This document shows positions 32,038-58,151 of a stretch of DNA of 59,256 bases, in pieces; position 1 is the first letter of the stretch, and each line of letters opens with the position of its first letter. The stretch comes from Actinomycetales bacterium mxb001 (GTDB lineage: Bacteria > Actinomycetota > Actinomycetes > S36-B12): positions 1-59,256 of the forward strand of contig NBNH01000347.1 in the NCBI GenBank assembly GCA_004379115.1, read 5' to 3'. The position numbers were made by a program, and so were the translations under genes. The notes beneath the pieces are model-generated. The model had not been told where the DNA came from, searched no databases, and worked only from the letters and a program-made list of their open reading frames with translations.

Positions 32038-32592
32038 ATGGGCCTTGAAGAAAAGCTGCCATCCGGGGTGCTTCTGACGACCGTCGAGGCCGTCGCGGGA
32101 TACGCGCGCAAGGGATCGCTGTGGCCGGCCACATTCGGCCTGGCCTGCTGCGCCATCGAGATGATGGCCGTCGGCGGACCGCGCTACGACATCGCCCGCT
32201 TCGGCATGGAGGTCTTCCGCGCCTCGCCGCGTCAGGCCGATCTGATGATCGTGGCCGGTCGCGTCAGCCAGAAGATGGCCCCGGTGCTGCGCCAGATCTA
32301 CGACCAGATGCCCAACCCCAAGTGGGTGCTGGCCATGGGTGTGTGCGCCTCCAGCGGTGGCATGTTCAACAACTACGCGATCGTCCAGGGCGTCGATCAC
32401 GTCGTGCCCGTCGACATGTACCTCCCCGGCTGTCCGCCTCGCCCCGAGATGCTCATCGACGCCATCTTGAAGATCCACGACGAGATCCAGGGCATGAAGC
32501 TCGGTGCCAACGCGATTCGCGAGCAAAACCTCGAGGAAGCGGCGGCGCTCACCGCGGCGCCCACGCTCGAGATGCGAGGCCTGCTGCGATGA
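32038..32592 (+). CDS. nuoB: NADH-quinone oxidoreductase subunit B
   Basis: N2-cluster motifs [25 protein letters not shown]. Confidence 0.95.
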
Positions 32593-33332
32593 CCGACCAG
32601 ACGCCGGTCACCCCCGCCGAGGCAGGGCTGGAGGTCGCCGCTCACGTCACCACGCCCGCCCGCACCATCGAACTCGAGGTCGTGGGCGTTCGTCACGGCG
32701 CCTTCGGCGCGGAAGACGGCGGCGACACCTCGGGTTTCGGCGGTCTCGTCGCCCCCATCGTGATGCCCGGCCCGACCCTGCCGCCCTACGGCGACTGGTT
32801 CGACGACGCCGCCGAGGAGATCGCGCTGGCGCTCGCCGATCACGGCCTCCCGATGACCACGGCCGTCGAGAAGGTCGTCGTCTACCGCGGCGAGATCACC
32901 TTCGTCGTTCGCCGCGAGCACCTGCTGACCTTCGTCACCGCCCTTCGCGATGAGCCCGCACTGAGGTTCGAGATGTGCATGGGCGTCAGCGGTGTCCACT
33001 TCCCTGACGACAGGGGCCGCGAGCTCCACGCCGTCTACCCGTTCCTGTCCATCACGCACAACCGGCGGGTGCGCGTCGAGGTCACGTGCCCCGACAACGA
33101 CCGCCACATCCCGTCGATCGTCAGCGTCTACCCGGCCAACGACTGGCACGAGCGCGAGACCTACGACTTCTTCGGCATCATCTTCGACGGGCATCCGTCG
33201 CTGACGCGTATCGAGATGCCCGACGACTGGCTGGGGCACCCGCAGCGCAAGGACTACCCACTGGGTGGCATCCCGGTCGAATACAAGGGTGCTGAGGTTC
33301 CCCCGCCCGACGAGCGGAGGGCCTACTCCTGA
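32589..33332 (+). CDS. nuoC: NADH-quinone oxidoreductase subunit C
   Basis: [22 protein letters not shown] overlap with nuoB. Track ORF start 32121 is an out-of-gene extension. Confidence 0.9.
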
Positions 33333-34705
33333 TGAGCACCGACAACATGAGCGCCGAAGACGTCATCTACGAGGCCGGCCACGATGACGCCGATGCCTAC
33401 GCCGATTCCTACGACACGAGTGATGGCCGCGTCTTCACTCTCTCCGGCGGCGACTGGGACACCGTCACTCCGCCGAGCGAGGGCGAGAAGGAACGCATCG
33501 TCGTCAACATGGGCCCGCAGCATCCGTCGACGCACGGGGTACTGCGCCTGATCCTCGAACTCGAGGGCGAGACCGTCACCGAGACCCGCTGCGGCATCGG
33601 CTACCTTCACACGGGCATCGAGAAGAACATGGAGTACCGCACCTGGACCCAGGGCGTGACCTTCGTGACCCGCATGGACTACCTCTCACCGTTCTTCAAT
33701 GAGACTGCCTACTGCCTCGCCGTCGAGAAGCTCCTCGGCGTCACCGAGGAGATCCCCGATCGGGCGTCCACCATCCGCGTGATGATGATGGAGCTCAACC
33801 GCATCTCGTCCCATCTTGTGGCGCTGGCTACGGGCGGCATGGAGCTCGGTGCGCTCACCGCGATGATCTTCGGCTTCCGCGAGCGCGAACTCCTCCTCGA
33901 CATCTTCGAGATGGTCACCGGCCTGCGCATGAACAGTGCCTACGTGCGCCCCGGTGGCGTCGCGCAGGATGTCACCGACGACCAGATCAATCGCATTCGC
34001 GAGACCCTGCCGCTGCTGAAGAAGCGCCTCAAGGACACCAGCGACCTGCTCGTCGACAACGCCATCTGGATGGGACGCACGGTCGGGATCGGCTACCTCG
34101 ACCTCGCCTCGTGCATGGCCCTGGGCATCACCGGTCCCATCCTGCGCTCCACCGGCCTGCCCCACGATCTGCGCAAGTCCCAGCCCTACTGCGGCTACGA
34201 GAACTACGAGTTCGAGGTGCAGACGACCGACACCTGCGACGTCTACGGCCGCTTCCTCATCCGCATCGGCGAGATGCACGAGTCGATCAAGATCGTCGAG
34301 CAGGCACTCGACCGCCTGCGTCCCGGGCCCGTGATGATCGAAGACAAGAAGATCGGCTGGCCCGCGCGCCTGTCGATCGGCAGCGATGGCCAGGGCAACT
34401 CGCCCGAGCACATCAAGGAGATCATGACGGAGTCGATGGAGGCACTCATCCATCACTTCAAGCTGGTCACCGAGGGCTTCCGGGTGCCCGCCGGCCAGGT
34501 CTACGCGGCGATCGAGTCACCTCGTGGCGAACTCGGCGCCCATGTCGTCAGCACGGGCGGCACGCGTCCCTACCGCGTCCACTTCCGTGACCCGTCCTTC
34601 AACAACCTGCAGTCGACCGCCGCCATGTGCGACGGCAGCATGGTGTCCGACGTCATCGCCGCCGTGGCCAGCATCGACCCCGTCATGGGGGGTGTCGACC
34701 GATGA
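33332..34705 (+). CDS. nuoD: NADH-quinone oxidoreductase subunit D
   Basis: [15 protein letters not shown], 457 aa. 1-nt overlap (TGATG) with the nuoC stop. Confidence 0.95.
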
Positions 34706-49696: not shown

Positions 49697-49718
49697 AGCC
49701 CGTGGGGAGGTGGCGGTC

Positions 49719-50516
49719 GTGGCGAAGCGGCAGGTCGCGCGCGCGAGCGATGAGGCGCGCCTGGGCGACATCACACGCCCGGAGGACTTCGCCCTCGACG
49801 GCACCCCGCTCATCTCCTACCTCTGGATGCTCAGCGACCTGCCCGATGGCGACGCGGTGGGCTTCGCCATCTGCCGAGGTCTCCTCGCGCCCTTCGGTGC
49901 TGAACTTGCGCTGGTGTACGCCGTCCGGCCCGATGGCCACACGCTCGACCTCATCGCGTCCTACGGCATGGGCAAGAAGGAGGATGCCGTCTACTCGAGG
50001 GTGACCGCCGAGATGCATCTGCCGGGTGTTGAGACGTTCCGGCTGGGCACCGAGAAGTGGCTGACCAAGGACCAGGTCTCCGACGACTACCCGCTTGCGG
50101 CGCCGTTCTTCCGGGCGTGGAAGTCCAACGGCGATTTCGCGTTCCTGCCGCTGCGTCACCGCGGTGCGCCCATGGGGTTCATGGTCCTTGCCTTCGCCGA
50201 GCCAGTGGAACGCAGCTGGCACCTCAGGGCCACCATTGACGCCGTCCTCAGTGCCACCGTCCTGTGGCTGCTGGCCGCGTCGGCCCTGAAGGGCACCGCC
50301 CGTTCCAACCTCGCGGAGACGGCGCCCCTCGAACTCACGGCCCGCCAGCGCGAGGTGCTCGTGCTCATGCGCGAAGGGCGGAGCAATCGCGACATCGCGG
50401 ATCAGTTGGGCTACTCCGTCGCCACCATCAAGGCCGACATCACGGCCCTGGGTCAGATGCTCGGTGCCAGCGGCCGCGCCGACATCCTCGAACGCGCCCG
50501 ACTCGCCGGGCACTAG
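49719..50516 (+). CDS. LuxR-family transcriptional regulator with N-terminal GAF-like sensory domain
   Basis: C-terminal HTH LTARQREVLVLMREGRSNRDIADQLGYSVATIKADI. GTG at 49719 is preferred (GGAGG 8 nt upstream), with GTG at 49710 as the alternative. Confidence 0.8.
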   Translation: MAKRQVARASDEARLGDITRPEDFALDGTPLISYLWMLSDLPDGDAVGFAICRGLLAPFGAELALVYAVRPDGHTLDLIASYGMGKKEDAVYSRVTAEMHLPGVETFRLGTEKWLTKDQVSDDYPLAAPFFRAWKSNGDFAFLPLRHRGAPMGFMVLAFAEPVERSWHLRATIDAVLSATVLWLLAASALKGTARSNLAETAPLELTARQREVLVLMREGRSNRDIADQLGYSVATIKADITALGQMLGASGRADILERARLAGH

Positions 50517-51438: not shown

Positions 51439-52497
51439 TCAGGAGACGGTCCAGGTGTCCTTGCCCCGCAGCAATGACTGCAGGTCGCCCTCGCCCTGGG
51501 CTTGGACGGACGCGACCTGTTCGCGCACGAGGCGGTCGTAGGCCGGTCGCTGCACGTCGCGGAAGACGCCGACCGCGGTGTTTTCGAGCGAGTGGATGTC
51601 GGCCAGCCGCGACAGCGCGAAGGCGAGGCCCGGGTCGTCGGCGTGGGAGTCGAACACGATGATCTCCGCCGGGTCGACCTCGGAGGTATCTGCCACGACG
51701 ATGTGTCCCGCCTCGCCGCGCACGACGGCCTTCGATCCGTCCTTGCCGAACACGACAGGCTGGCCGTCGGCGAGTCGGATCATCCGGTCGTCGCTGGTCT
51801 CGGAGTCCTTGAGCGGCTCCCACGCGCCGTCGTTGAAGATGTTGCAGTTCTGCATGATCTCGACCAGCGCGGTGCCTTCGTGGGCGGCCGCGCGGCGCAG
51901 GACCTCGGTGAGGTGCTTGCGGTCGGAGTCCATGGTGCGCGCGACGAACGACGCCTCGGCGCCGAGGGCGAGGGACACGGGATTGAACGAGTGGTCGAGT
52001 GAGCCGAGTGGCGTGGACTTGGTGATCTTGCCGGTCTCGGAGGTGGGGGAGTACTGGCCCTTGGTCAGGCCGTAGATGCGGTTGTTGAAGAGCAGGATCT
52101 TGAGGTTGACGTTGCGTCGCAGCGCGTGGATCAGGTGGTTGCCGCCGATGGAGAGCGCATCACCGTCGCCCGTGACGACCCACACCGACAGGTCGGGGCG
52201 CGTGAGCGCGAGGCCCGTGGCGATCGCCGGCGCGCGACCATGGATCGAATGCATGCCGTAGGTGTTCATGTAGTACGGGAAGCGCGACGAACAACCGATG
52301 CCCGAAACGAAGACGATGTTCTCCTTGCGCAGGCCGAGTTCGGGTAGGAAGCCCTGTACCGCAGCGAGGATCGCGTAGTCACCGCACCCGGGGCACCAGC
52401 GCACCTCCTGGTCGGTCTTGAAGTCCTTGGCGCTTTGCTTCTCGTCGGTGCGTGGCACGAGCGCGAGGCCGGGCATGGGCAGGTCGGTGGCGGTCAC
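51439..52497 (-). CDS. korB: 2-oxoglutarate:ferredoxin oxidoreductase subunit beta
   Basis: WCPGCGDYAIL, GIGCSSRFPYY, and TPP-binding GDGDALSIGGNH. Confidence 0.9.
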   Translation of the reverse strand: MTATDLPMPGLALVPRTDEKQSAKDFKTDQEVRWCPGCGDYAILAAVQGFLPELGLRKENIVFVSGIGCSSRFPYYMNTYGMHSIHGRAPAIATGLALTRPDLSVWVVTGDGDALSIGGNHLIHALRRNVNLKILLFNNRIYGLTKGQYSPTSETGKITKSTPLGSLDHSFNPVSLALGAEASFVARTMDSDRKHLTEVLRRAAAHEGTALVEIMQNCNIFNDGAWEPLKDSETSDDRMIRLADGQPVVFGKDGSKAVVRGEAGHIVVADTSEVDPAEIIVFDSHADDPGLAFALSRLADIHSLENTAVGVFRDVQRPAYDRLVREQVASVQAQGEGDLQSLLRGKDTWTVS

Positions 52498-52504
52498 GGG
52501 ATCC

Positions 52505-54361
52505 TCACAGGCTCTCGATGACGTCGGTGATGGTGGAGGCGAGTTCTTCGGAGGTGAAGGGCATGCCTCGCACCTGGTTGTAGCTGATGGCGTCCACGAG
52601 GAAGCGGCCGCGGATCAGCAGGGCGAGTTGCCCGAGATTCATTTCGGGGATGATCACCCTGTCGTACGCGCGGAGCACCTCAGCGGTGTTGGCCGGGAAC
52701 GGGTTGAGGTGCCGCAGGTGAGCCTGCGCGACGTTGCCGCCCTCGGCGCGCACGGCGCGGCAGGCGGCACCGATCGGCCCGTAGGTCGAGCCCCAGCCGA
52801 GCACCAGCACGCGTGCCTCGCCGGAGGGATCGTCGACCTCGAGCGGCCCGATGCTGCGAGCGATCGCCTCGACCTTGGCCTGACGCAGCCGCACCATGTG
52901 GTCGTGGTTGTCGGGGTCGTAGGAGATGTTGCCGCTGCCGTCGGCCTTTTCGAGCCCGCCGATGCGGTGTTCGAGGCCGGGGGTGCCGGGCACCGCCCAG
53001 GGGCGCGCGAGGGTTTCGGAATCGCGTAGATAGGGCCAGAACTCACCGTCGTGGTTGGGCTCGGTGGCAAACCCCGGGTCGATCGCGGGAAGCGACGCCG
53101 CATCGGGCACGGCCCAGGGCTCGGAGCCGTTGGCGAGGTAGCCATCGGAGAGCAGCAGCACCGGGGTGCGGTAGGTGATGGCGATGCGGGCGGCCTCGAA
53201 GGCGGCGTCGAAGCAGTCGCCGGGGGAGCGCGGAGCGACGATCGGCACGGGAGCTTCGCCGTTGCGGCCGAACATCGCCTGGAGCAGGTCGGCCTGCTCG
53301 GTCTTGGTGGGCAGGCCGGTGGAGGGTCCGCCACGCTGCACATCGACGACGATGAGCGGCAACTCGAGTGACACGGCGAGCCCGATGGTCTCGGACTTCA
53401 GAGCGATGCCCGGACCCGACGTCGTCGTGACGCCGAGCGCACCGCCGTAGGCGGCGCCCAGTGCGGCACCGATGCCGGCGATCTCGTCTTCGGCCTGGAA
53501 GGTGACGACGCCGAAGTTCTTGTGCTTGCTCAGCTCGTGCAGGATGTCGGACGCTGGCGTGATCGGGTAGGACCCGAGGAAGAGCGGCAGACCGGACTGC
53601 TGCGAGGCAGCGATGAGTCCGTAGGCGAGCGCCGGGTTGCCGGTGATGTTGCGGTAGAGGCCGGCGCGCATCGGCGCGGGCTTGACCTCGTAGCGAACCG
53701 CGAACGACTCGGTGGTCTCGCCGAAGGACCAGCCGGCCTCGAAGGCGGCGATATTGGCGGCGAGGATCTCGGGCTTCTTGGCGAACTTGGCCTTGAGGAA
53801 GTCGATGGTGCCCTGGGTGGGTCGGCTGTAGAGCCAGCACAGCAGCCCCAGGGCAAACATGTTCTTGGCCCGCTCAGCGTCCTTCTTGGTGATGTCGAAG
53901 CCCGACAGCGCCTCGACGGTCATGGAGGTGAGGCCGATGGCCTGCACGTCGTACGAGTCGAGCGTGCCGTCTTCCAGCGGGTTGCTCGCGTAGTCGACCT
54001 TCTCGAGGTTGCGCTTCGTGAACTCGTCGGTGTTGACGATCAGCGTGCAGCCGGCGCGCAGGTCCTTGAGGTTGGCCTTGAGTGCGGCGGGGTTCATCGC
54101 GACGAGGACGTCGGGCCGATCGCCGGGCGTCATGATGTCGTGATCGGCGAAGTGCAACTGGAACGCGGAGACGCCGGGCAGGGTGCCGGCGGGAGCGCGG
54201 ATCTCGGCGGGGAAGTCCGGCAGGGTCGACAGGTCGTTACCGAGTCCGGCGGTCTCGGAGGTGAAGCGGTCGCCGGTCAACTGCATGCCGTCGCCGGAAT
54301 CACCGGCGAAACGGATCACGACGTGCCCCAGCGGGACGACGGCCTTGGCGTCAGTCGACAT
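52505..54361 (-). CDS. korA: 2-oxoglutarate:ferredoxin oxidoreductase subunit alpha
   Basis: 618 aa with fused gamma/alpha domains ([15 protein letters not shown] ... [15 protein letters not shown]). GAGGA 5 nt upstream of the ATG. Confidence 0.9.
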
Positions 54362-54406
54362 TCACGTCCTCGTTCGGCGGCGTAGGGGCTGGACTCATTC
54401 TCTACC

Positions 54407-54422
54407 CCGAGGGGCCCCTCGG
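54407..54422. promoter_or_regulatory. Perfect 16-bp palindrome CCGAGGGGCCCCTCGG in the korA / nuoB-like divergent intergenic region
   Basis: Read directly from the sequence. It lies between korA (ATG at 54361) and the nuoB-like start (54483). Confidence 0.3.
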
Positions 54423-54470
54423 CCCGTTTCGGGTGCCGGGACGCGGGACGGGGCAGCCCTGAGATCGGAC

Positions 54471-54476
54471 TACCCT
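54471..54476 (+). promoter_or_regulatory. -10-like hexamer TACCCT, 6 nt upstream of the ATG at 54483
   Basis: Plus strand reads TACCCT-gcccag-ATG. Confidence 0.45.
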
Positions 54477-54482
54477 GCCCAG

Positions 54483-54881
54483 ATGAGCGTGTACGCCGTC
54501 GCCGACGCCCCCGGCATCCGCGTGCACGTGGCCGACCTCGGCATGGCCTGCTGCGCGGTGGAGTTCGCGGCCGCCCTCGGGCGGGGGCTGTTGGTGGAGG
54601 CGCCCGACGACGGCGAGCCCTCGGCCCGAGTCCTCGTCGTCTCAGGCACGGTGACCGATGTTCTCGCTCCGTCCGTGCTGGCGGCCTGGGAGGCGCTGCC
54701 CGCGCCCAAGGCGGCCATGTCGTTCGGGGCGTGCAGCAACACGGGCGGTCCCTACTGGGACTCCTACTCGGTGACCAAGGGTGTCGACCAGGTCATCCCG
54801 GTGCACTCCTATGTGCCCGGTTGCCCGCCGCGGCCCGAGGCCCTCATCGATGCCATCGTCGAGTTGGCGGCGTCGGCGTGA
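54483..54881 (+). CDS. NuoB-family (complex I 20-kDa / hydrogenase small-subunit-like) protein, short paralogue
   Basis: 132 aa. MACCAV (C23, C24), GACSNTGG (C84) and [14 protein letters not shown] (C114) align with the canonical NuoB in this window. Confidence 0.8.
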
Positions 54882-55390
54882 ACATCGACGCGGGTGCGTG
54901 GTCGTCGACTGTTGCCGACCGGGTGGCGGATGGCTTCGTCTATCTCGACTTGCTGACGGCGGTGGACCGTCCGGGCGACGGATCCATCGAGATCGTGCTC
55001 GTGCTGCTACGGCTCGATGATGCTGCCGCGTGCACTCTGACGACGTCGATCGGCCGTGCCGAGCCGCGGCTGGCGTCCCTGGTGACGCTGTTTCCTGCCG
55101 CCTCGTGGCATGAGCGGGAGATCCGCGAGATGTTCGGCGTTGAGTTCGCCGGCAACCCCGATTCGCGTCCCCTACTGCTGTCGCCCGGGCTTGGCGTTCA
55201 CCCGCTTCGCAAGGACACCGTGCTGGTCACGCGAGCCGTGACCGTGTGGCCGGGCGCGCCCGACAGGAGCGGCTCTGCCGCTCCGCCGGGCGCCCAGGAT
55301 GATGAGCCCACCTCATCGGGGCGGCGTTCGCGCCGTGCCAGCCTGCCCCCGGGAGTGCCCGCCGACTGGTTGCGCGAGGAGGGGTCGTGA
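54878..55390 (+). CDS. NuoC-family (30-kDa subunit-like) protein, short paralogue with Pro/Arg/Ser-rich tail
   Basis: 170 aa. [19 protein letters not shown] matches the canonical [22 protein letters not shown] overlap with the upstream gene. Confidence 0.75.
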
Positions 55391-55734
55391 CGCAGGTGCC
55401 GGAGCAGGCCCGCGGCGTCATCGCCCTTGATCCCGTGGCGTGTACGTCGTGCATGATCTGCGTGCGCGAGTGCCCGGACTGGTGCATCGAGATCGACAGC
55501 CACACCGAGGAGGTCACCGAGCCGGGTGCGCGTCGGCCGCGGTTCGTCGCGGTACTCGACCGCTTCGCCATCGACTGGGGCCTGTGCATGTACTGCGGCA
55601 TCTGCGTCGAGGTGTGCCCATTCGACGCGCTGTTTTGGTCACCGGAGCATGACTACCCGGCAAGTGAACCCGGTGGCCTCGTGCAGGAGACCCAGCGCCT
55701 GGCCGACTGGCTGCCGAGCGTGCCTCAGCGGTAG
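55387..55734 (+). CDS. NuoI-like 2x[4Fe-4S] ferredoxin-type protein
   Basis: 115 aa. [12 protein letters not shown] and [16 protein letters not shown] overlap with the upstream gene. Confidence 0.8.
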
Positions 55735-56216
55735 TTGACGAACTGGACCGGGAAGTCCAGGTCGGCGTCCTTCACCAACTGGATGACCTCCTGGAGGTCG
55801 TCACGGCTCGAGCTCGACACGCGTAGTTCCTCGCCCTGCACCTGCGTCTTGACCTTCTTGGGGCCCTCGTCGCGGATGAGCTTGGCGAGCTTCTTGGCCT
55901 GCTCCTGGTTGATGCCTTCCTTGAGCTGGCAGGTGATCTTGTGCAGGCGACCGGAGGCGCGGGCATCGCCGGCGTTGAGGATCTTCAGGCTGATGCCGCG
56001 CTTGACGAGCTTCTCCTTGAGCACCTCGAGGGCCGCCTTGACGCGGTCCTCGGTCTCGGCTTCGAGCTCGATGGTCATGTCACCTTTGAACTCGACCTTG
56101 GCGCCGGTGCCCTTGAAGTCGAAGCGCTGGGCAAGCTCCTTGGACGCCTGGTTGACGGCGTTGTCGACCTCGGCGCGGTCGAGCTTGGAGACGATGTCGA
56201 AACTGTTGTCGGCCAT
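55725..56216 (-). CDS. YajQ-family (UPF0234) nucleotide/cyclic-di-GMP-binding protein
   Basis: [37 protein letters not shown], 163 aa. Track ORF extends to 56306. Confidence 0.9.
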
Positions 56217-56241: not shown

Positions 56242-56865
56242 ATGCCGCCGCCCCGGGCCTTCCTGTTCGACCTCGATCGCACGCTCGTCGACCTGCAGTC
56301 CTTCACCGACTATGCGGCTGCTCTGCGCGATCTGACCGCCCTGGTGGGTGACCAACCTGGTGCGACGGTGCCGGATGCCGACTGGGATGCCCCGACTGTG
56401 TCGACGATGGCCATCCTGGTGGCGCTGTCGGATGACCCCCGCTGGCACGAGGCCTCAGCGGCGGTGTCCGTGCACGAGCGAGCCGCAATTCCGCAGTCGC
56501 AGCCCATGCCTGGGCTTGGCGACGCTGTCGAAGCGTGCGCGGGGCGCCCGTACGCCGTCGTCACGCTGCTGCCGTCGGATGTGGCGCGCGACGTGCTCGA
56601 TGCCCACGGTTTCCCGGTCGACGTCATCATCGGTCGCGACCCGCGCATCCGTGCCAAGCCGTTCGGTGATGGGCTGGTTGAGGCCGCTGAACGTCTCGGC
56701 GTGCCCGTCACGGAGTGCGTCATGATCGGCGATTCGTCGTGGGATCACGCGGCCGCGGTCGACGCCGGAGCGGGCTTCATCGGCGTTCCCGTGAGCGCAA
56801 CGGCCTTCCCTTCGGACGTGCCGGTGGCGCGCCATCTGGTCGAGGCCATCGAGCGAGCCCCGTAG
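56242..56865 (+). CDS. HAD-superfamily hydrolase
   Basis: [11 protein letters not shown] (DxDxT) and [20 protein letters not shown]. In-frame alternative starts at 56215 and 56227. Confidence 0.75.
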
Positions 56866-56903
56866 GTCGCTGCATGCCGGCCCTGGCTAGGCTAGGCGCC
56901 CCT

Positions 56904-56984
56904 GGCAGGTTGCCCGAGCGGCCAATGGGAGCGGACTGTAAATCCGTCGCGAAAGCTACAGAGGTTCGAATCCTCTACCTGCCA
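56904..56984 (+). tRNA. tRNA-Tyr (anticodon GTA), class II with long variable arm, CCA not encoded
   Basis: Acceptor GGCAGGT/ACCTGCC+A, anticodon loop CTGTAAA flanked by GCGGA/TCCGT, T-arm AGAGG-TTCGAAT-CCTCT. Confidence 0.85.
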
Positions 56985-56990
56985 CGCGTG

Positions 56991-57016
56991 GGCCCCCGGC
57001 ATTCGTGCCGGGGGCC
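56991..57016. terminator. Bidirectional stem-loop terminator (11-bp perfect GC-rich stem, TTCG loop)
   Basis: GGCCCCCGGCA-TTCG-TGCCGGGGGCC followed by TTTCTCGTC. It sits between the tRNA-Tyr 3-prime end and the stop of the convergent gene at 57024. Confidence 0.7.
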
Positions 57017-57023
57017 TTTCTCG

Positions 57024-58151
57024 TCAAGGAGCGAAGATGAGGGGGACTTGCTGCGCGACGTAGGGCGCGGCCGACCGCTCGTACCAGGCATCCCGGGTGA
57101 TGCCATAGACCTCAGAGAAACTGGCACCCGAGTCTCCGGAGACACGGGTGGCTCGCAACCACTGAAGGAAGCGCTCTTCGCCGAATTCCTCGATGAGTCT
57201 CTCGGTGACGAGGTAGCCCAACGAGTAGCCGAGACCGCTCTGGGAGCAGAATCCCGTGTTGCGATCCTCCGAGCGACGGATGACGTCGAGCCAGTACTCG
57301 GGAGAAGAAGCACTCGTTCCCGCCGCCATGTCGATGAGTGGCACGAGGAAGGCTGTTCGAGAGAAGCGAGCCTCCCGAGCGTTCTTTGGGTTGCTGAGAT
57401 CTCCGTGCCCCAGCGCCACCGAATACACCTGGGCCATGCCTTCCCCAAGCCAGCATTCCATCCGGGACATACCGCTCACCCCGAGAAGGCTCACTTGCGC
57501 TACGTGCACGAGCTCGTGAGCGTAGAGGCCCGCTTCGAGTGTGGGATCGCTGGCCGGGAGCCGACTTCCGAGCATGATGCCCATGTAGCTCCATGACGCG
57601 CCGGTGCCCCAGCAGACAGCCCCACCCGTCCCTGTCGGATTCGGAGACATCCTGTTCCACCAGTGAATGGCGCACCCGTCATTGGGAAATTGCCGGGACG
57701 TCTCCAAGTACCAGTCCTTCGACCGCTCATCCAAGATGAACACGGGGAAGCCGTCCGGAATCGGAGCGATGGCCAACCACGGTTCGTAGGCACGACGGAC
57801 AGAGGCGGCAATCTCGTCCGCCTTGGCTGGAGGAACGGTCGGGCTGATCATGAAGGAAAACGTGTTGGCGAGGCTGGGCTTGGGGCGCTTGGCTGCGGAT
57901 GCTTGCAGACCCTGGGCGACGGCCAACCAGGACGGCGTGGGTGCGGGTGTGCGTTGCCGGACCCAAACCCGCTTGCCCTTCTTGAGCGTGCAGGTGAAGG
58001 TCCAGGGTCCTTGGACGACCTTCTCGCCCACGGTGGCGCAGGGCCGACCCGGCTTGATCGTGGTGGCCTCGGCCGGACTCAACGTCATCATGGCCGCGAT
58101 ACCGACGACCGCGAGCACCACCGCCGCAACGCGCCTTGCCACCCCGACCAC
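57024..58151 (-). CDS. Secreted peptidase-MA-like putative zinc metalloprotease
   Basis: Signal/TM segment VAAVVLAVVGIAAMMTLSPAEA. HELVH followed by WLGEGMAQVY (HExxH...E pattern). Visibly lower GC and more A/T-ending codons than the neighbours. Confidence 0.6.
   Translation of the reverse strand: MVGVARRVAAVVLAVVGIAAMMTLSPAEATTIKPGRPCATVGEKVVQGPWTFTCTLKKGKRVWVRQRTPAPTPSWLAVAQGLQASAAKRPKPSLANTFSFMISPTVPPAKADEIAASVRRAYEPWLAIAPIPDGFPVFILDERSKDWYLETSRQFPNDGCAIHWWNRMSPNPTGTGGAVCWGTGASWSYMGIMLGSRLPASDPTLEAGLYAHELVHVAQVSLLGVSGMSRMECWLGEGMAQVYSVALGHGDLSNPKNAREARFSRTAFLVPLIDMAAGTSASSPEYWLDVIRRSEDRNTGFCSQSGLGYSLGYLVTERLIEEFGEERFLQWLRATRVSGDSGASFSEVYGITRDAWYERSAAPYVAQQVPLIFAP

What the first reader, a model, noticed from the sequence alone, without database searches (positions are those of the whole stretch)
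54362..55734. Self-contained nuoB/nuoC/nuoI-like operon without D, H or antiporter subunits, divergent from korAB
Seen in the sequence:
- Three ORFs of 132, 170 and 115 aa are translationally coupled by GTGA overlaps at 54878-54881 and 55387-55390.
- The B-like protein keeps all four N2-type Cys (C23/C24 in MACCAV, C84 in GACSNTGG, C114 in PGCPP). Their spacing is 60 and 30 residues, against 65 and 29 in the canonical NuoB at 32038..32592. It lacks about 14 N-terminal residues.
- The C-like protein keeps [14 protein letters not shown] and ends in a Pro/Arg/Ser-rich tail.
- The I-like protein keeps both CxxCxxCxxxCP motifs.
- The operon is bounded by divergent korA and a convergent yajQ-like gene, so no NuoD/large-subunit, NuoH or Mrp-like partner is encoded with it. 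A complete nuoA-N lies 7 kb upstream.

Established knowledge:
- In complex I and group 4 hydrogenases the B subunit works against the D/large subunit. B+C+I alone is not a recognised module.
- KorAB-type oxidoreductases need a low-potential ferredoxin or flavodoxin acceptor.
- In Campylobacter and Helicobacter an OOR-flavodoxin couple has been reported to feed complex I directly.

Inference: the triad may be a soluble three-cluster [4Fe-4S] relay taking electrons from KorAB toward complex I or quinone, or an alternative Q-module isoform.
Basis: partly seen in the sequence, partly recalled or inferred. Interest (0 to 1): 0.75.

Follow-up and report, generated by a model that had tools for sequence, protein, structure and literature searches.

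The report
Soluble NuoB-NuoC-NuoI remnant of nuo2
Three small, tightly coupled genes encode stripped-down copies of three iron-sulfur/scaffold subunits of respiratory complex I; they are what selection kept when a second complex-I-like operon of actinobacteria lost all its membrane subunits, and they probably form a soluble electron-carrying protein of unknown partner.

Summary
Three overlapping genes encode a NuoB-like protein with all four cluster-N2 cysteines (54483-54881), a NuoC-like protein with a Pro/Arg tail (54878-55390) and a NuoI-like protein with two 4Fe-4S motifs (55387-55734). They lie between divergent korAB and convergent yajQ.

The triad is not a stand-alone invention. It is orthologous to B2, C2 and I2 of the actinobacterial second nuo operon (nuo2):
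- Acidimicrobiia carry A-B-C-D-H-I-J-K-L-M-N.
- Streptomyces and many others carry the same operon without D.
- One clade, including this window, Lentzea and Actinosynnema, keeps only B, C and I.

The triad genes are under purifying selection (dN/dS 0.06-0.10 for B and I). They keep every cluster ligand in 118 of 120 homologues. They have lost the NuoI N-terminal amphipathic segment, the NuoB N-terminal motif and the NuoB RxDxxRxG...PRQxD loop, all of which the membrane-bound versions keep.

Best reading: a soluble three-cluster electron-transfer module. Coupling to KorAB is plausible but unproven, because the adjacency is largely inherited synteny. A role as a replacement isoform in canonical complex I is disfavoured. 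I rate it a new variant of a known kind, of moderate to high interest.

The parts
54362..54482 (.). 121-bp divergent intergenic region between korA and the B-like gene. A TACCCT element at 54471-54476 lies 7 nt before the ATG. It may be a -10 box of a leaderless transcript.
   Evidence: Sequence. The block GGACTACCCTGCCC is conserved in the close relatives L088 and L089, while the rest of the spacer varies. The sigma-70 consensus scan found nothing. The leaderless reading is inference.
54483..54881 (+). Bx: a minimal NuoB/NdhK-type subunit of 132 aa. It has the N2-type [4Fe-4S] ligands C23, C24, C84 and C114. It lacks the N-terminal LNWGRRYSLW motif, the RxDxxRxG...PRQxD loop and the C-terminal helix.
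   Evidence: PF01058 at 71 bits. Best solved relative is cyanobacterial NdhK, 6hum_K, at 101 bits. Ligands are invariant in alignment A2 and present in 118 of 120 homologues. Loop and motif loss. C-terminal shortening.
54878..55390 (+). Cx: a NuoC-type scaffold subunit of 170 aa. It has a NuoC domain (about residues 1-120), a disordered linker and a C-terminal motif.
   Evidence: PF00329 at 92 bits. The AF2 model has pLDDT above 95 for residues 1-100 and below 50 for 132-152. Foldseek matches NuoC/NDUFS3/NdhJ at rmsd 1.3-2.0 A over 120 residues.
55322..55369 (+). C-terminal motif of Cx, [16 protein letters not shown] (residues 149-164). The family form is (R/K)RRxxxPPGVPxxW, preceded by WPGAxEPGE.
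   Evidence: The motif is present in all D-less and triad C proteins examined. It is absent from all 19 D-containing operons and from L083. R152, R153, P157, P158, G159, V160 and W164 are invariant or nearly so in 59 homologues. It is not packed on the NuoC domain in the model, where its pLDDT is about 55.
55378..55382 (+). GGAGG Shine-Dalgarno-like sequence inside the 3' end of Cx, 5 nt before the GTG start of Ix.
   Evidence: Read directly from the sequence.
55387..55734 (+). Ix: a minimal NuoI-type 2x[4Fe-4S] subunit of 115 aa. It has CxxCxxCxxxCP motifs at residues 19 and 67. It starts at the position of the QYPE motif and lacks the N-terminal amphipathic segment.
   Evidence: Fer4 families. 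Best NCBIfam model is TIGR01971 NuoI at 57.6 bits, below the 113 cut-off. The ORF is bounded upstream by a stop, so no longer N-terminus is possible. Comparison with 60 I2 proteins of full operons.
51439..54361 (-). korB (51439-52497) and korA (52505-54361): a two-subunit 2-oxoacid:acceptor oxidoreductase, divergent from the triad. This is context and a candidate electron donor.
   Evidence: TIGR03710 at 671 bits, above its cut-off, and TIGR02177. Pfam POR, POR_N and TPP_enzyme_C.
55725..56216 (-). yajQ (DUF520, cyclic-di-GMP-binding family), convergent with the triad. Its 3' end overlaps Ix by 10 nt. This is a context and synteny marker.
   Evidence: NF003819 at 195 bits, above its cut-off. 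The same neighbour occurs in L001-L007, L058, L088-L090 and L094.

Best explanation
The three genes encode a minimal soluble heterotrimer. It consists of a NuoB-type subunit with one N2-type [4Fe-4S] cluster, a NuoI-type subunit with two [4Fe-4S] clusters, and a NuoC-type scaffold whose C-terminal (R/K)RRxxxPPGVPxxW peptide arose when NuoD was lost.

Shown:
- It descends in situ from the second complex-I-like operon of actinobacteria (nuo2: A-B-C-(D)-H-I-J-K-L-M-N, without NuoEFG).
- The descent removed A2, H2 and J2-N2 and left exactly the three non-membrane subunits.
- These subunits stay translationally coupled and under purifying selection.

Inferred:
- The trimer no longer docks on a membrane arm and no longer builds a quinone site.
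- It works as a low-potential electron-transfer relay, passing electrons through the two NuoI-type clusters to the N2-type cluster.
- The most plausible donor is the neighbouring KorAB 2-oxoglutarate:acceptor oxidoreductase.
- The acceptor is unknown.
For: Origin:
- The tblastn layout of 87 loci shows B, C and I homologues embedded in A2-B2-C2-D2-H2-I2-J2..N2 in Acidimicrobiia and in the same operon without D in Streptomyces, Micromonospora, Actinomadura and others. They stand alone in the window lineage, L010, L012, Lentzea and Actinosynnema.
- An NJ tree on the B+I core puts all triads in one clade (bootstrap 95) inside the D-less clade (92).
- Synteny is kept: korAB upstream, and htpX and yajQ downstream.

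Maintenance:
- dN/dS against close relatives is 0.07-0.10 for B, 0.06-0.07 for I and 0.20-0.27 for C. Controls are KorA at 0.05 and YajQ at 0.03-0.09.
- 118 of 120 B homologues keep CC...GxC...PGCPP.
- The 4-nt and 8-nt gene overlaps are kept in relatives.
- Three separate deletions spared exactly B, C and I.

Solubility and loss of the quinone site:
- The I N-terminal segment PGxGLAKGLAVTLRTMT..QYP is present in all 60 I2 proteins recovered from full operons and absent in all 16 triads.
- The B motif LNWGRRYSLW is present in 62 of the 63 B2 ORFs recovered from full operons. It is intact in the basal triad L010, half-kept in Lentzea and Actinosynnema, and gone in the window lineage and in 120 of 120 homologues.
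- The B loop RxDxxRxG...PRQxD is present in at least 60 of 63 full operons and in the canonical NuoB, and in 0 of 16 triads and 0 of 120 homologues.
- Both termini are shortened.
- There is no hydrophobic segment beyond the conserved core strand.

KorAB:
- korA is directly adjacent in 10 distinct triad loci.
- The physiological acceptor of actinobacterial KorAB is not known (PMC2773412).
Against: - At equal KorA divergence (70-75% identity) the triad proteins are much more diverged than those of full operons: B core 62% against 92%, I 68% against 85%, C 45% against 63%. Constraint is therefore clearly relaxed.
- Other lineages show plain decay of nuo2. Phycicoccus keeps only A2 and B2. L093 keeps A2, B2, C2 and H2 next to an integrase.
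- No precedent is known to me for a stable NuoB N2 cluster without NuoD. This rests on my own knowledge.
- No transcription evidence could be obtained.
- The korAB adjacency is inherited from the nuo2 neighbourhood. korAB is 4.5-7 kb away in Lentzea and Actinosynnema, absent in L058 and absent in 13 of 13 D-containing loci.
- M. tuberculosis has KorAB without such neighbours.
- Monophyly of the triads in a distance tree could be inflated by long-branch attraction.
Confidence: 0.55

Rival explanations
1. Alternative Q-module isoforms. On this view B2, C2 and I2 replace the canonical NuoB, NuoC and NuoI in the nuo1-encoded complex I. They would use the canonical NuoD, NuoH and NuoA and exclude NuoEFG, giving a hybrid ferredoxin- or KorAB-driven complex I.
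For: - A complete nuo1 operon lies upstream in the window and in L001-L006, L058, L092 and L094.
- A hybrid nuo/nuo2 machinery has been suggested for Streptomyces (PMC9239103).
- Partial complex I enzymes that use flavodoxin or ferredoxin exist (PMC4453560).
- The best solved relative of Bx is NdhK of the ferredoxin-dependent cyanobacterial NDH-1.
Against: - The segments that all membrane-bound orthologues keep are missing or degenerate in all triads. These are the I N-terminal amphipathic segment, the B N-terminal motif and the B RxDxxRxG...PRQxD loop, which is also present in the canonical NuoB.
- The proteins evolve several-fold faster than in membrane-bound versions.
- Bx is only 36% identical to the canonical NuoB of the same window.
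Confidence: 0.12
2. A slowly decaying relic. On this view nuo2 is dispensable, and the triad is simply what has not yet been deleted, with no function of its own.
For: - nuo2 is found in several states of erosion: A2+B2 only in Phycicoccus, and A2-B2-C2-H2 only in L093.
- D is lost in most Actinomycetes.
- Protein evolution is accelerated in triads.
- The function of nuo2 is called unclear in the literature.
Against: - dN/dS is 0.06-0.10 for B and I, close to the housekeeping neighbours.
- No frameshifts or stops were seen, and all cluster ligands are kept in 118 of 120 homologue clusters.
- The triad state spans divergences down to 70% KorA identity, for example the window against Lentzea.
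- Translational coupling is preserved.
- Three deletions spared exactly the three soluble subunits.
Confidence: 0.1
3. The trimer serves an unlinked partner or a non-respiratory role. Examples are electron supply to another enzyme encoded elsewhere, a redox or Fe-S sensing module, or an assembly factor for complex I. KorAB would be only a neighbour by descent.
For: - The conserved C-terminal peptide of C is not packed in cis in the model (pLDDT about 55), as expected of a motif that binds something in trans.
- L058 keeps the triad without adjacent korAB.
- The neighbours yajQ, htpX and HAD hydrolase give no functional hint.
Against: - No candidate partner is linked in any of the 16 triad loci.
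- The electron-wire architecture of three clusters in the complex I arrangement is what is conserved.
Confidence: 0.18

Closest known systems
Actinobacterial second nuo operon (nuo2; Streptomyces coelicolor SCO4599-SCO4608)
   Same: - The B, C and I proteins are orthologous: they fall in one clade (bootstrap 92-95).
- They occupy the same chromosomal position: korAB upstream, htpX and yajQ downstream.
- Both share the GGPYWDSY signature in B.
- Both share the WPGAxEPGE...RRxxxPPGVPxxW tail in C.
- Both lack NuoD and NuoEFG.
   Different: - The triad has no A, H, J, K, L, M or N genes.
- B and I are trimmed at both ends.
- The B N-terminal motif and the RxDxxRxG...PRQxD loop are lost.
- The proteins evolve faster.
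- The function of nuo2 itself is undescribed (PMC9239103).
Q-module of respiratory complex I (NuoB/Nqo6/NDUFS7, NuoC/Nqo5/NDUFS3, NuoD/Nqo4/NDUFS2, NuoI/Nqo9/NDUFS8)
   Same: - The domain families and the NuoC fold are the same.
- The tandem-Cys N2 ligand pattern is present.
- Both NuoI cluster motifs are present.
   Different: - There is no NuoD, so there is no quinone or N2 pocket partner.
- There is no membrane arm and no N-module.
- All three proteins score below the NCBIfam cut-offs.
- Bx is 36% identical to the canonical NuoB of the same window.
Partial complex I enzymes that lack NuoEFG and take electrons from ferredoxin or flavodoxin (cyanobacterial NDH-1, Campylobacter jejuni complex I, archaeal Fpo)
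   Same: - They lack NuoEFG.
- The best solved relative of Bx is NdhK of NDH-1.
- The triad lies next to a 2-oxoacid:acceptor oxidoreductase, which recalls the OOR-flavodoxin-complex I chain (PMC4453560).
   Different: Those enzymes keep NuoD/NdhH, NuoH and the antiporter-like subunits and reduce quinone. The triad keeps none of these.
Delta (ferredoxin-like) subunit of four-subunit 2-oxoacid:ferredoxin oxidoreductases (PorD/KorD)
   Same: Ix is a small 2x[4Fe-4S] protein encoded next to a two-subunit KorAB that has no delta subunit. It has a weak TIGR02179 match.
   Different: - The score is 39 bits, below the cut-off of 60.
- The inter-motif insert and the phylogeny are NuoI-type.
- Ix is co-translated with NuoB- and NuoC-like partners.

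Membership tests
NuoB/PSST/NdhK (PF01058; TIGR01957, NF005012) | Domain match above the curated threshold | tested here: inconclusive
   Pfam PF01058 scores 71.4 bits against a cut-off of 27, so it is met. The NCBIfam models are not met: NF005012 scores 109.8 against 116, and TIGR01957 scores 107.7 against 142.7.
NuoB/PSST/NdhK (PF01058; TIGR01957, NF005012) | Four Cys ligands of cluster N2, including the tandem CC | tested here: met
   C23, C24, C84 and C114 are present. They are invariant in A2 and present in 118 of 120 homologues.
NuoB/PSST/NdhK (PF01058; TIGR01957, NF005012) | Conserved loop RxDxxRxG...PRQ(A/S)D between the CC motif and the SGT strand. From my own knowledge of complex I structures, this loop lines the quinone cavity. 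| tested here: not met
   The loop is absent in 16 of 16 triad B proteins and 120 of 120 homologues. It is present in the canonical NuoB of the window and in at least 60 of 63 full nuo2 operons.
NuoC/NDUFS3/NdhJ (PF00329; TIGR01961) | Domain match and fold | tested here: met
   PF00329 scores 92 bits against a cut-off of 22.5. The AF2 model has pLDDT above 95 for the domain. Foldseek gives rmsd 1.3-2.0 A over 120 residues. TIGR01961 scores 69.7 against 122.45 and is not reached.
NuoI/NDUFS8/NdhI (TIGR01971) | Two CxxCxxCxxxCP motifs with the NuoI-type insert between them | tested here: met
   The motifs are at residues 19 and 67, and the insert aligns with I2 of the full operons.
NuoI/NDUFS8/NdhI (TIGR01971) | Curated score and the N-terminal amphipathic segment before QYPE | tested here: not met
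   TIGR01971 scores 57.6 against 113. The segment is absent and the ORF is closed upstream by a stop.
Actinobacterial nuo2 operon | Orthology of B, C and I, shown by a shared clade, shared signatures and shared chromosomal position | tested here: met
   Supported by the tree, the GGPYWDSY and C-tail motifs and synteny.
Actinobacterial nuo2 operon | Membrane subunits A2, H2 and J2-N2 encoded with B, C and I | tested here: not met
   None lies between korA and yajQ in the window or in any of the 16 triad loci.
Complex I / group 4 [NiFe]-hydrogenase-type energy-converting complexes | NuoD or large subunit paired with the NuoB or small subunit | tested here: not met
   There is no NuoD-like ORF in the locus. 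The only NuoD in the window is the canonical one at 33332-34705. Whether an unlinked copy exists in the genome could not be tested.
2-oxoacid:ferredoxin oxidoreductase delta subunit (TIGR02179 PorD_KorD) | Curated score | tested here: not met
   The score is 39.4 bits against a cut-off of 60.05.
Functional electron partner of KorAB | Reduction by KorAB, co-expression, or physical association | not testable with these tools
   Only gene adjacency is available, and it is inherited synteny. The RNA data were not informative.

The most novel reading that the evidence does not exclude
Actinobacteria have turned the iron-sulfur core of complex I into a new kind of soluble electron carrier. It is a NuoB-NuoC-NuoI trimer in which a short C-terminal peptide of NuoC takes the place of NuoD. 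The trimer is the dedicated physiological acceptor of the aerotolerant KorAB 2-oxoglutarate oxidoreductase. By extension, its membrane-bound ancestor, the D-less nuo2 of Streptomyces, would be a KorAB/ferredoxin-driven pump that works without the canonical NuoD quinone site.
Probability: 0.18. Interest if true: 0.85.

Novelty: new variant of a known kind. Interest (0 to 1): 0.62.

Why it matters
NuoD is regarded as indispensable to the NuoB cluster N2 and to the quinone site in complex I and its hydrogenase relatives. Here a whole actinobacterial lineage has dropped NuoD, in the D-less nuo2 operon. A sub-lineage has then dropped every membrane subunit as well, yet keeps B, C and I under selection with all clusters.

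If the trimer is a working soluble Fe-S protein, three things follow:
- The Q-module core can exist and function on its own.
- There is a candidate for the still unknown physiological acceptor of actinobacterial KorAB.
- The series D-containing, D-less and triad offers a natural dissection of which parts of NuoB and NuoI serve membrane and quinone coupling and which serve electron transfer.

It also corrects annotation. These genes are uniformly named NADH-quinone oxidoreductase subunits B, C and I, although they cannot be part of an NADH:quinone oxidoreductase as encoded.

Tried and rejected
- Fused B-linker-C-linker-I alignment for AlphaFold2, meant to see where the C tail docks.
- Transcription. 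An RNA-run search returned only runs of unknown kind. Their contigs cover korAB, the triad and yajQ at flat depth, so they are metagenomic DNA and say nothing about transcription.
- Shared regulatory motif in the korA-B spacer. The spacer aligns only among close relatives. Nothing is conserved beyond GGACTACCCTGCCC, and the sigma-70 and terminator scans found nothing.
- The idea that the C-tail motif is a relic of NuoD. The Acidimicrobiia D2 proteins are ordinary NuoD (GPQHP...LGDIDR), and the motif occurs nowhere in D-containing loci. Rejected.
- The idea that Streptomyces hides a D gene between C2 and H2. That space is the long low-complexity tail of C2. Rejected.
- Literature searches for nuoA2/nuoB2, nuo2, SCO4599-4603 and KorAB found no description of the triad and only 'function unclear' for nuo2.
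- The longest-ORF lengths of B, C and I in high-GC loci were not usable as such. I replaced them with motif-anchored comparisons.
Full report
**1. The observation**

The region holds three ORFs on the + strand.
- 54483-54881 encodes 132 aa and starts with ATG.
- 54878-55390 encodes 170 aa and starts with GTG.
- 55387-55734 encodes 115 aa and starts with GTG.

The ORFs are joined by GTGA overlaps at 54878-54881 and 55387-55390. A GGAGG lies 5 nt before the third start.

Pfam assigns them to Oxidored_q6 (NuoB; 71 bits), Complex1_30kDa (NuoC; 92 bits) and the 4Fe-4S ferredoxin families. In NCBIfam the best models are NuoB, NuoC and NuoI, but every score is below the curated cut-off: 109.8 against 116, 69.7 against 122 and 57.6 against 113.

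The B-like protein has Cys 23, 24, 84 and 114, a spacing of 60 and 30. The canonical NuoB of the same window has Cys 37, 38, 103 and 132, a spacing of 65 and 29. The I-like protein has CxxCxxCxxxCP at residues 19 and 67.

The flanks are korA/korB on the other strand (TIGR03710 at 671 bits) and a convergent yajQ. The canonical nuoA-N operon ends 7.2 kb upstream.

**2. It is a family, not a one-off**

A search with the B-like protein returned more than 120 clusters at 59-95% identity. All are 115-208 aa long and come from freshwater, groundwater, wastewater and soil actinobacterial metagenomes.

Wherever the contig is long enough, the arrangement is the same: nuoL-M-N, polyprenyl synthase, (acyl-CoA dehydrogenase), EamA, korB and korA, then divergently B, C and I, then convergent yajQ.

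**3. Where it comes from**

A scan of one genome per species with the family's conserved peptides ([17 protein letters not shown]) gave 80 loci. I laid the window's Nuo, Kor and YajQ proteins on all loci by tblastn. Three architectures appear.
- In Acidimicrobiia and a few others (19 loci), the B-like gene sits in a complete eleven-gene operon, A-B-C-D-H-I-J-K-L-M-N, without E, F or G. The operon directly follows the canonical nuo operon.
- In Streptomyces, Kitasatospora, Micromonospora, Actinoplanes, Actinomadura, Nonomuraea, Pedococcus, Flexivirga and others (44 loci), the same operon lacks D. This is the 'nuo2' cluster of Streptomyces coelicolor (SCO4599-4608). The one paper I found that discusses it calls its function unclear (PMC9239103).
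- In 16 loci only B, C and I remain. These are the window and its relatives, two soil MAGs, Lentzea and Actinosynnema.

In Streptomyces the space between C2 and H2 is not a hidden D. It is a long low-complexity tail of C2.

A neighbour-joining tree of the B+I core (245 columns, 100 bootstraps) places all triads in one clade (95%). That clade lies inside the D-less clade (92%), which in turn is next to the D-containing operons.

Synteny agrees. korAB lies 5-7 kb upstream of nuoA2 in Streptomyces-type genomes, with a two-component system in between. htpX follows nuoN2 in Streptomyces and follows I in Lentzea, L010 and L012, and yajQ lies further down.

The triad is therefore nuo2 after removal of A2, of H2 (between C and I) and of J2-N2.

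**4. Relic or kept?**

Evidence that it is kept:
- Against the closest relatives (88-92% identity in B), dN/dS by the Nei-Gojobori method is 0.07-0.10 for B, 0.06-0.07 for I and 0.20-0.27 for C. The neighbours give 0.05 for KorA and 0.03-0.09 for YajQ.
- 118 of 120 B homologues keep the full CC...GxC...PGCPP pattern. Of the two exceptions, one has PGCLP with the Cys kept, and the other carries an internal duplication that looks like an assembly artefact.
- The tight gene overlaps are kept in distant relatives.
- The triad state spans divergences down to 70% KorA identity.
- Three separate deletions left exactly the three non-membrane subunits.

Evidence that constraint is relaxed:
- At 70-75% KorA identity, the B core is 62% identical among triads but 92% among full D-less operons. 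The I core is 68% against 85%, and the C core is 45% against 63%.
- Other lineages show plain erosion of nuo2. Phycicoccus avicenniae keeps only A2 and B2. L093 keeps A2, B2, C2 and H2 beside an integrase.

I conclude that the triad is maintained by selection, but with far fewer constrained surfaces than in the membrane complex.

**5. What was lost from the proteins**

I anchored all B, C and I sequences on their invariant motifs.
- NuoI N-terminus. All 60 I2 proteins recovered from full operons carry PGxGLAKGLAVTLRTMTxxxVTxQYP before the first cluster motif. No triad does. In the window the ORF is closed by a stop 18 residues before the first Cys.
- NuoB N-terminus. All but one of the 63 B2 ORFs recovered from full operons carry (V/L)LNWGRRYSLW(V)FNFGLACC. 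The exception is L041, whose recovered ORF does not show the motif. In the triads the motif is intact in the basal L010, half-kept in Lentzea and Actinosynnema (VLNWGTTYRVTVLELGLACC), and replaced by [23 protein letters not shown] in the window lineage and in all 120 homologues.
- NuoB loop. The loop RxDxxRxG...PRQ(A/S)D lies between the CC motif and the SGT strand. The PRQ(A/S)D half is present in 61 of 63 full operons and the RxDxxRxG half in 60 of 63. The loop is also present in the canonical NuoB of the window (PRYDIARFG...SPRQADL). It is present in 0 of 16 triads and 0 of 120 homologues.
- C-termini. B has a median of 18 residues after PGCPP in triads, against 46-57 in full operons. I is also shorter at its C-terminus.

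From my own knowledge of complex I structures, the NuoI N-terminal helix and the NuoB N-terminus lie on NuoH and NuoA, and the NuoB loop lines the quinone cavity. I did not test this here. What the data do show is that these segments are invariant as long as membrane subunits are encoded, and that they degenerate stepwise once those subunits are gone.

The I truncation may also be a direct by-product of the deletion that removed H2.

No hydrophobic segment is present other than the conserved core strand of B.

**6. The C protein and the loss of D**

All 19 D-containing operons have a C protein that ends ...PLRKDFPLLARxVKPWPG(I/L)VDVE, followed by an acidic tail.

All D-less and triad C proteins instead continue WPGAKEPGE...(R/K)RRxxxPPGVPxxW. 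In the window this reads [16 protein letters not shown], residues 149-164. The one exception is L083, the basal D-less locus, which still has the old ending.

The motif residues are invariant or nearly so in 59 homologues. The motif is not a piece of NuoD.

An AlphaFold2 model built on 59 sequences gives the following:
- the NuoC domain has pLDDT above 95;
- the linker at residues 132-152 is disordered;
- the motif has pLDDT of about 55 and is not packed on the domain.

Foldseek confirms the NuoC/NDUFS3/NdhJ fold, at 1.3-2.0 A over 120 residues.

The appearance of the motif coincides with the loss of D, and the motif looks like a peptide that binds in trans. Whether it covers the face of B that D used to cover is inference.

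**7. The korAB question**

- korA is directly adjacent in ten distinct triad loci.
- It is 4.5-7 kb away in Actinosynnema and Lentzea.
- It is absent in L058, where the polyprenyl synthase gene abuts the triad.
- Among D-less full operons, 28 of 39 have korA within 10 kb. Among D-containing operons, 0 of 13 do.

The tight divergent arrangement in the window therefore arose by deletion of what lay between korA and B2. It is not independent evidence of coupling.

M. tuberculosis has a functional KorAB without such neighbours. Its physiological acceptor was not identified: methyl viologen was used, and NAD(P), flavins and menadione were not reduced (PMC2773412).

KorAB remains the most plausible donor for three reasons. 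It needs a low-potential Fe-S acceptor, it is the only redox enzyme linked to the triad, and partial complex I enzymes fed by 2-oxoacid oxidoreductases through flavodoxin or ferredoxin are known (PMC4453560). I put this specific link at about 0.3.

**8. Mechanism proposed**

Shown:
- B, C and I are co-translated.
- All twelve cluster ligands are kept.
- The arrangement is that of the N6a-N6b-N2 wire of complex I.
- Membrane partners, NuoD and the membrane and quinone segments are absent.

Inferred:
- The proteins form a soluble trimer.
- The trimer takes electrons at the NuoI-type clusters and passes them to the N2-type cluster.
- The C tail stabilises or shields the face left open by the loss of D, or it recruits the partner.

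Unknown: the acceptor.

Transcription could not be assessed. The conserved TACCCT 7 nt before the ATG suggests a leaderless transcript, but this is inference only.

**9. Comparison and novelty**

The closest known entity is the nuo2 operon itself, which has no described function.

The proteins belong to the NuoB, NuoC and NuoI superfamilies. The closest solved relatives are cyanobacterial NdhK for B, NDUFS3 for C, and FwdF polyferredoxin or NuoI for I.

They fail several defining features of complex I membership:
- there is no D;
- there is no membrane arm;
- the B loop and the I N-terminus are missing;
- scores are below the curated cut-offs.

I found no paper describing a B-C-I-only module.

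I rate it a new variant of a known kind. Interest is moderate to high. A specialist would be surprised that the Q-module core persists without NuoD and without a membrane, and the series D-containing, D-less and triad makes the question experimentally tractable.

Noticed in passing
L013-L063 (e.g. L016 9366-20354, Streptomyces sp. NBC_00872): The nuo2 operon of Streptomyces and many other Actinomycetes has ten genes: A2-B2-C2-H2-I2-J2-K2-L2-M2-N2. It has no NuoD, yet it keeps the NuoB loop and all the N-terminal segments lost in the triads. Contrary to the literature statement that nuo2 lacks C and L, a NuoC-like gene with a 200-470-residue low-complexity tail and a NuoL-like gene are present.
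   Followed up: partly
L011 9526-10480 (Phycicoccus avicenniae); L093 6217-9610: These are other erosion states of nuo2. Phycicoccus has A2 and B2 only, followed by unrelated genes. L093 has A2, B2, an Uma2 gene on the opposite strand, C2 and H2, then unrelated genes and an integrase.
   Followed up: partly
L041, L044, L046, L054, L056 (Micromonosporaceae): In these nuo2 operons several kilobases separate B2 from C2 and H2 from I2. The operon seems to be interrupted by inserted genes that I did not identify.
   Followed up: no
L064, L069-L071, L074, L079, L081, L082 (Acidimicrobiia): The complete D-containing nuo2 (eleven genes, no EFG) lies immediately downstream of the canonical nuoA-N operon. 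This tandem is probably the ancestral arrangement.
   Followed up: partly
window 55725-55734: The stop-proximal ends of the I-like gene and the convergent yajQ overlap by 10 nt. No intrinsic terminator was found on either strand.
   Followed up: partly
window 56904-56985: A tRNA-Tyr (GTA) gene. It explains the very high metagenomic contig depth at 56829-57000.
   Followed up: yes
window 57024-58151 (-): A 374-aa ORF with an N-terminal hydrophobic, signal-like segment and no Pfam match.
   Followed up: partly
window 49710-50516 (+): A LuxR/GerE-type regulator lies between the acyl-CoA dehydrogenase and the EamA transporter. Its 200-residue N-terminal part has no Pfam match. It is present in L001 but not in L002 or L005.
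   Followed up: no
P0087 (homologue of Bx): This protein carries an internal tandem duplication, [25 protein letters not shown] twice. It is probably an assembly artefact and is the only such case among the 120 homologues.
   Followed up: no
L058 1-9000: The canonical nuo genes of this MAG appear as many short tblastn pieces in different frames. This suggests frameshift errors in the assembly rather than pseudogenes. The triad in the same contig is intact, but its B protein has a (TA)n-encoded Ala/Thr repeat in the loop after the CC motif.
   Followed up: no
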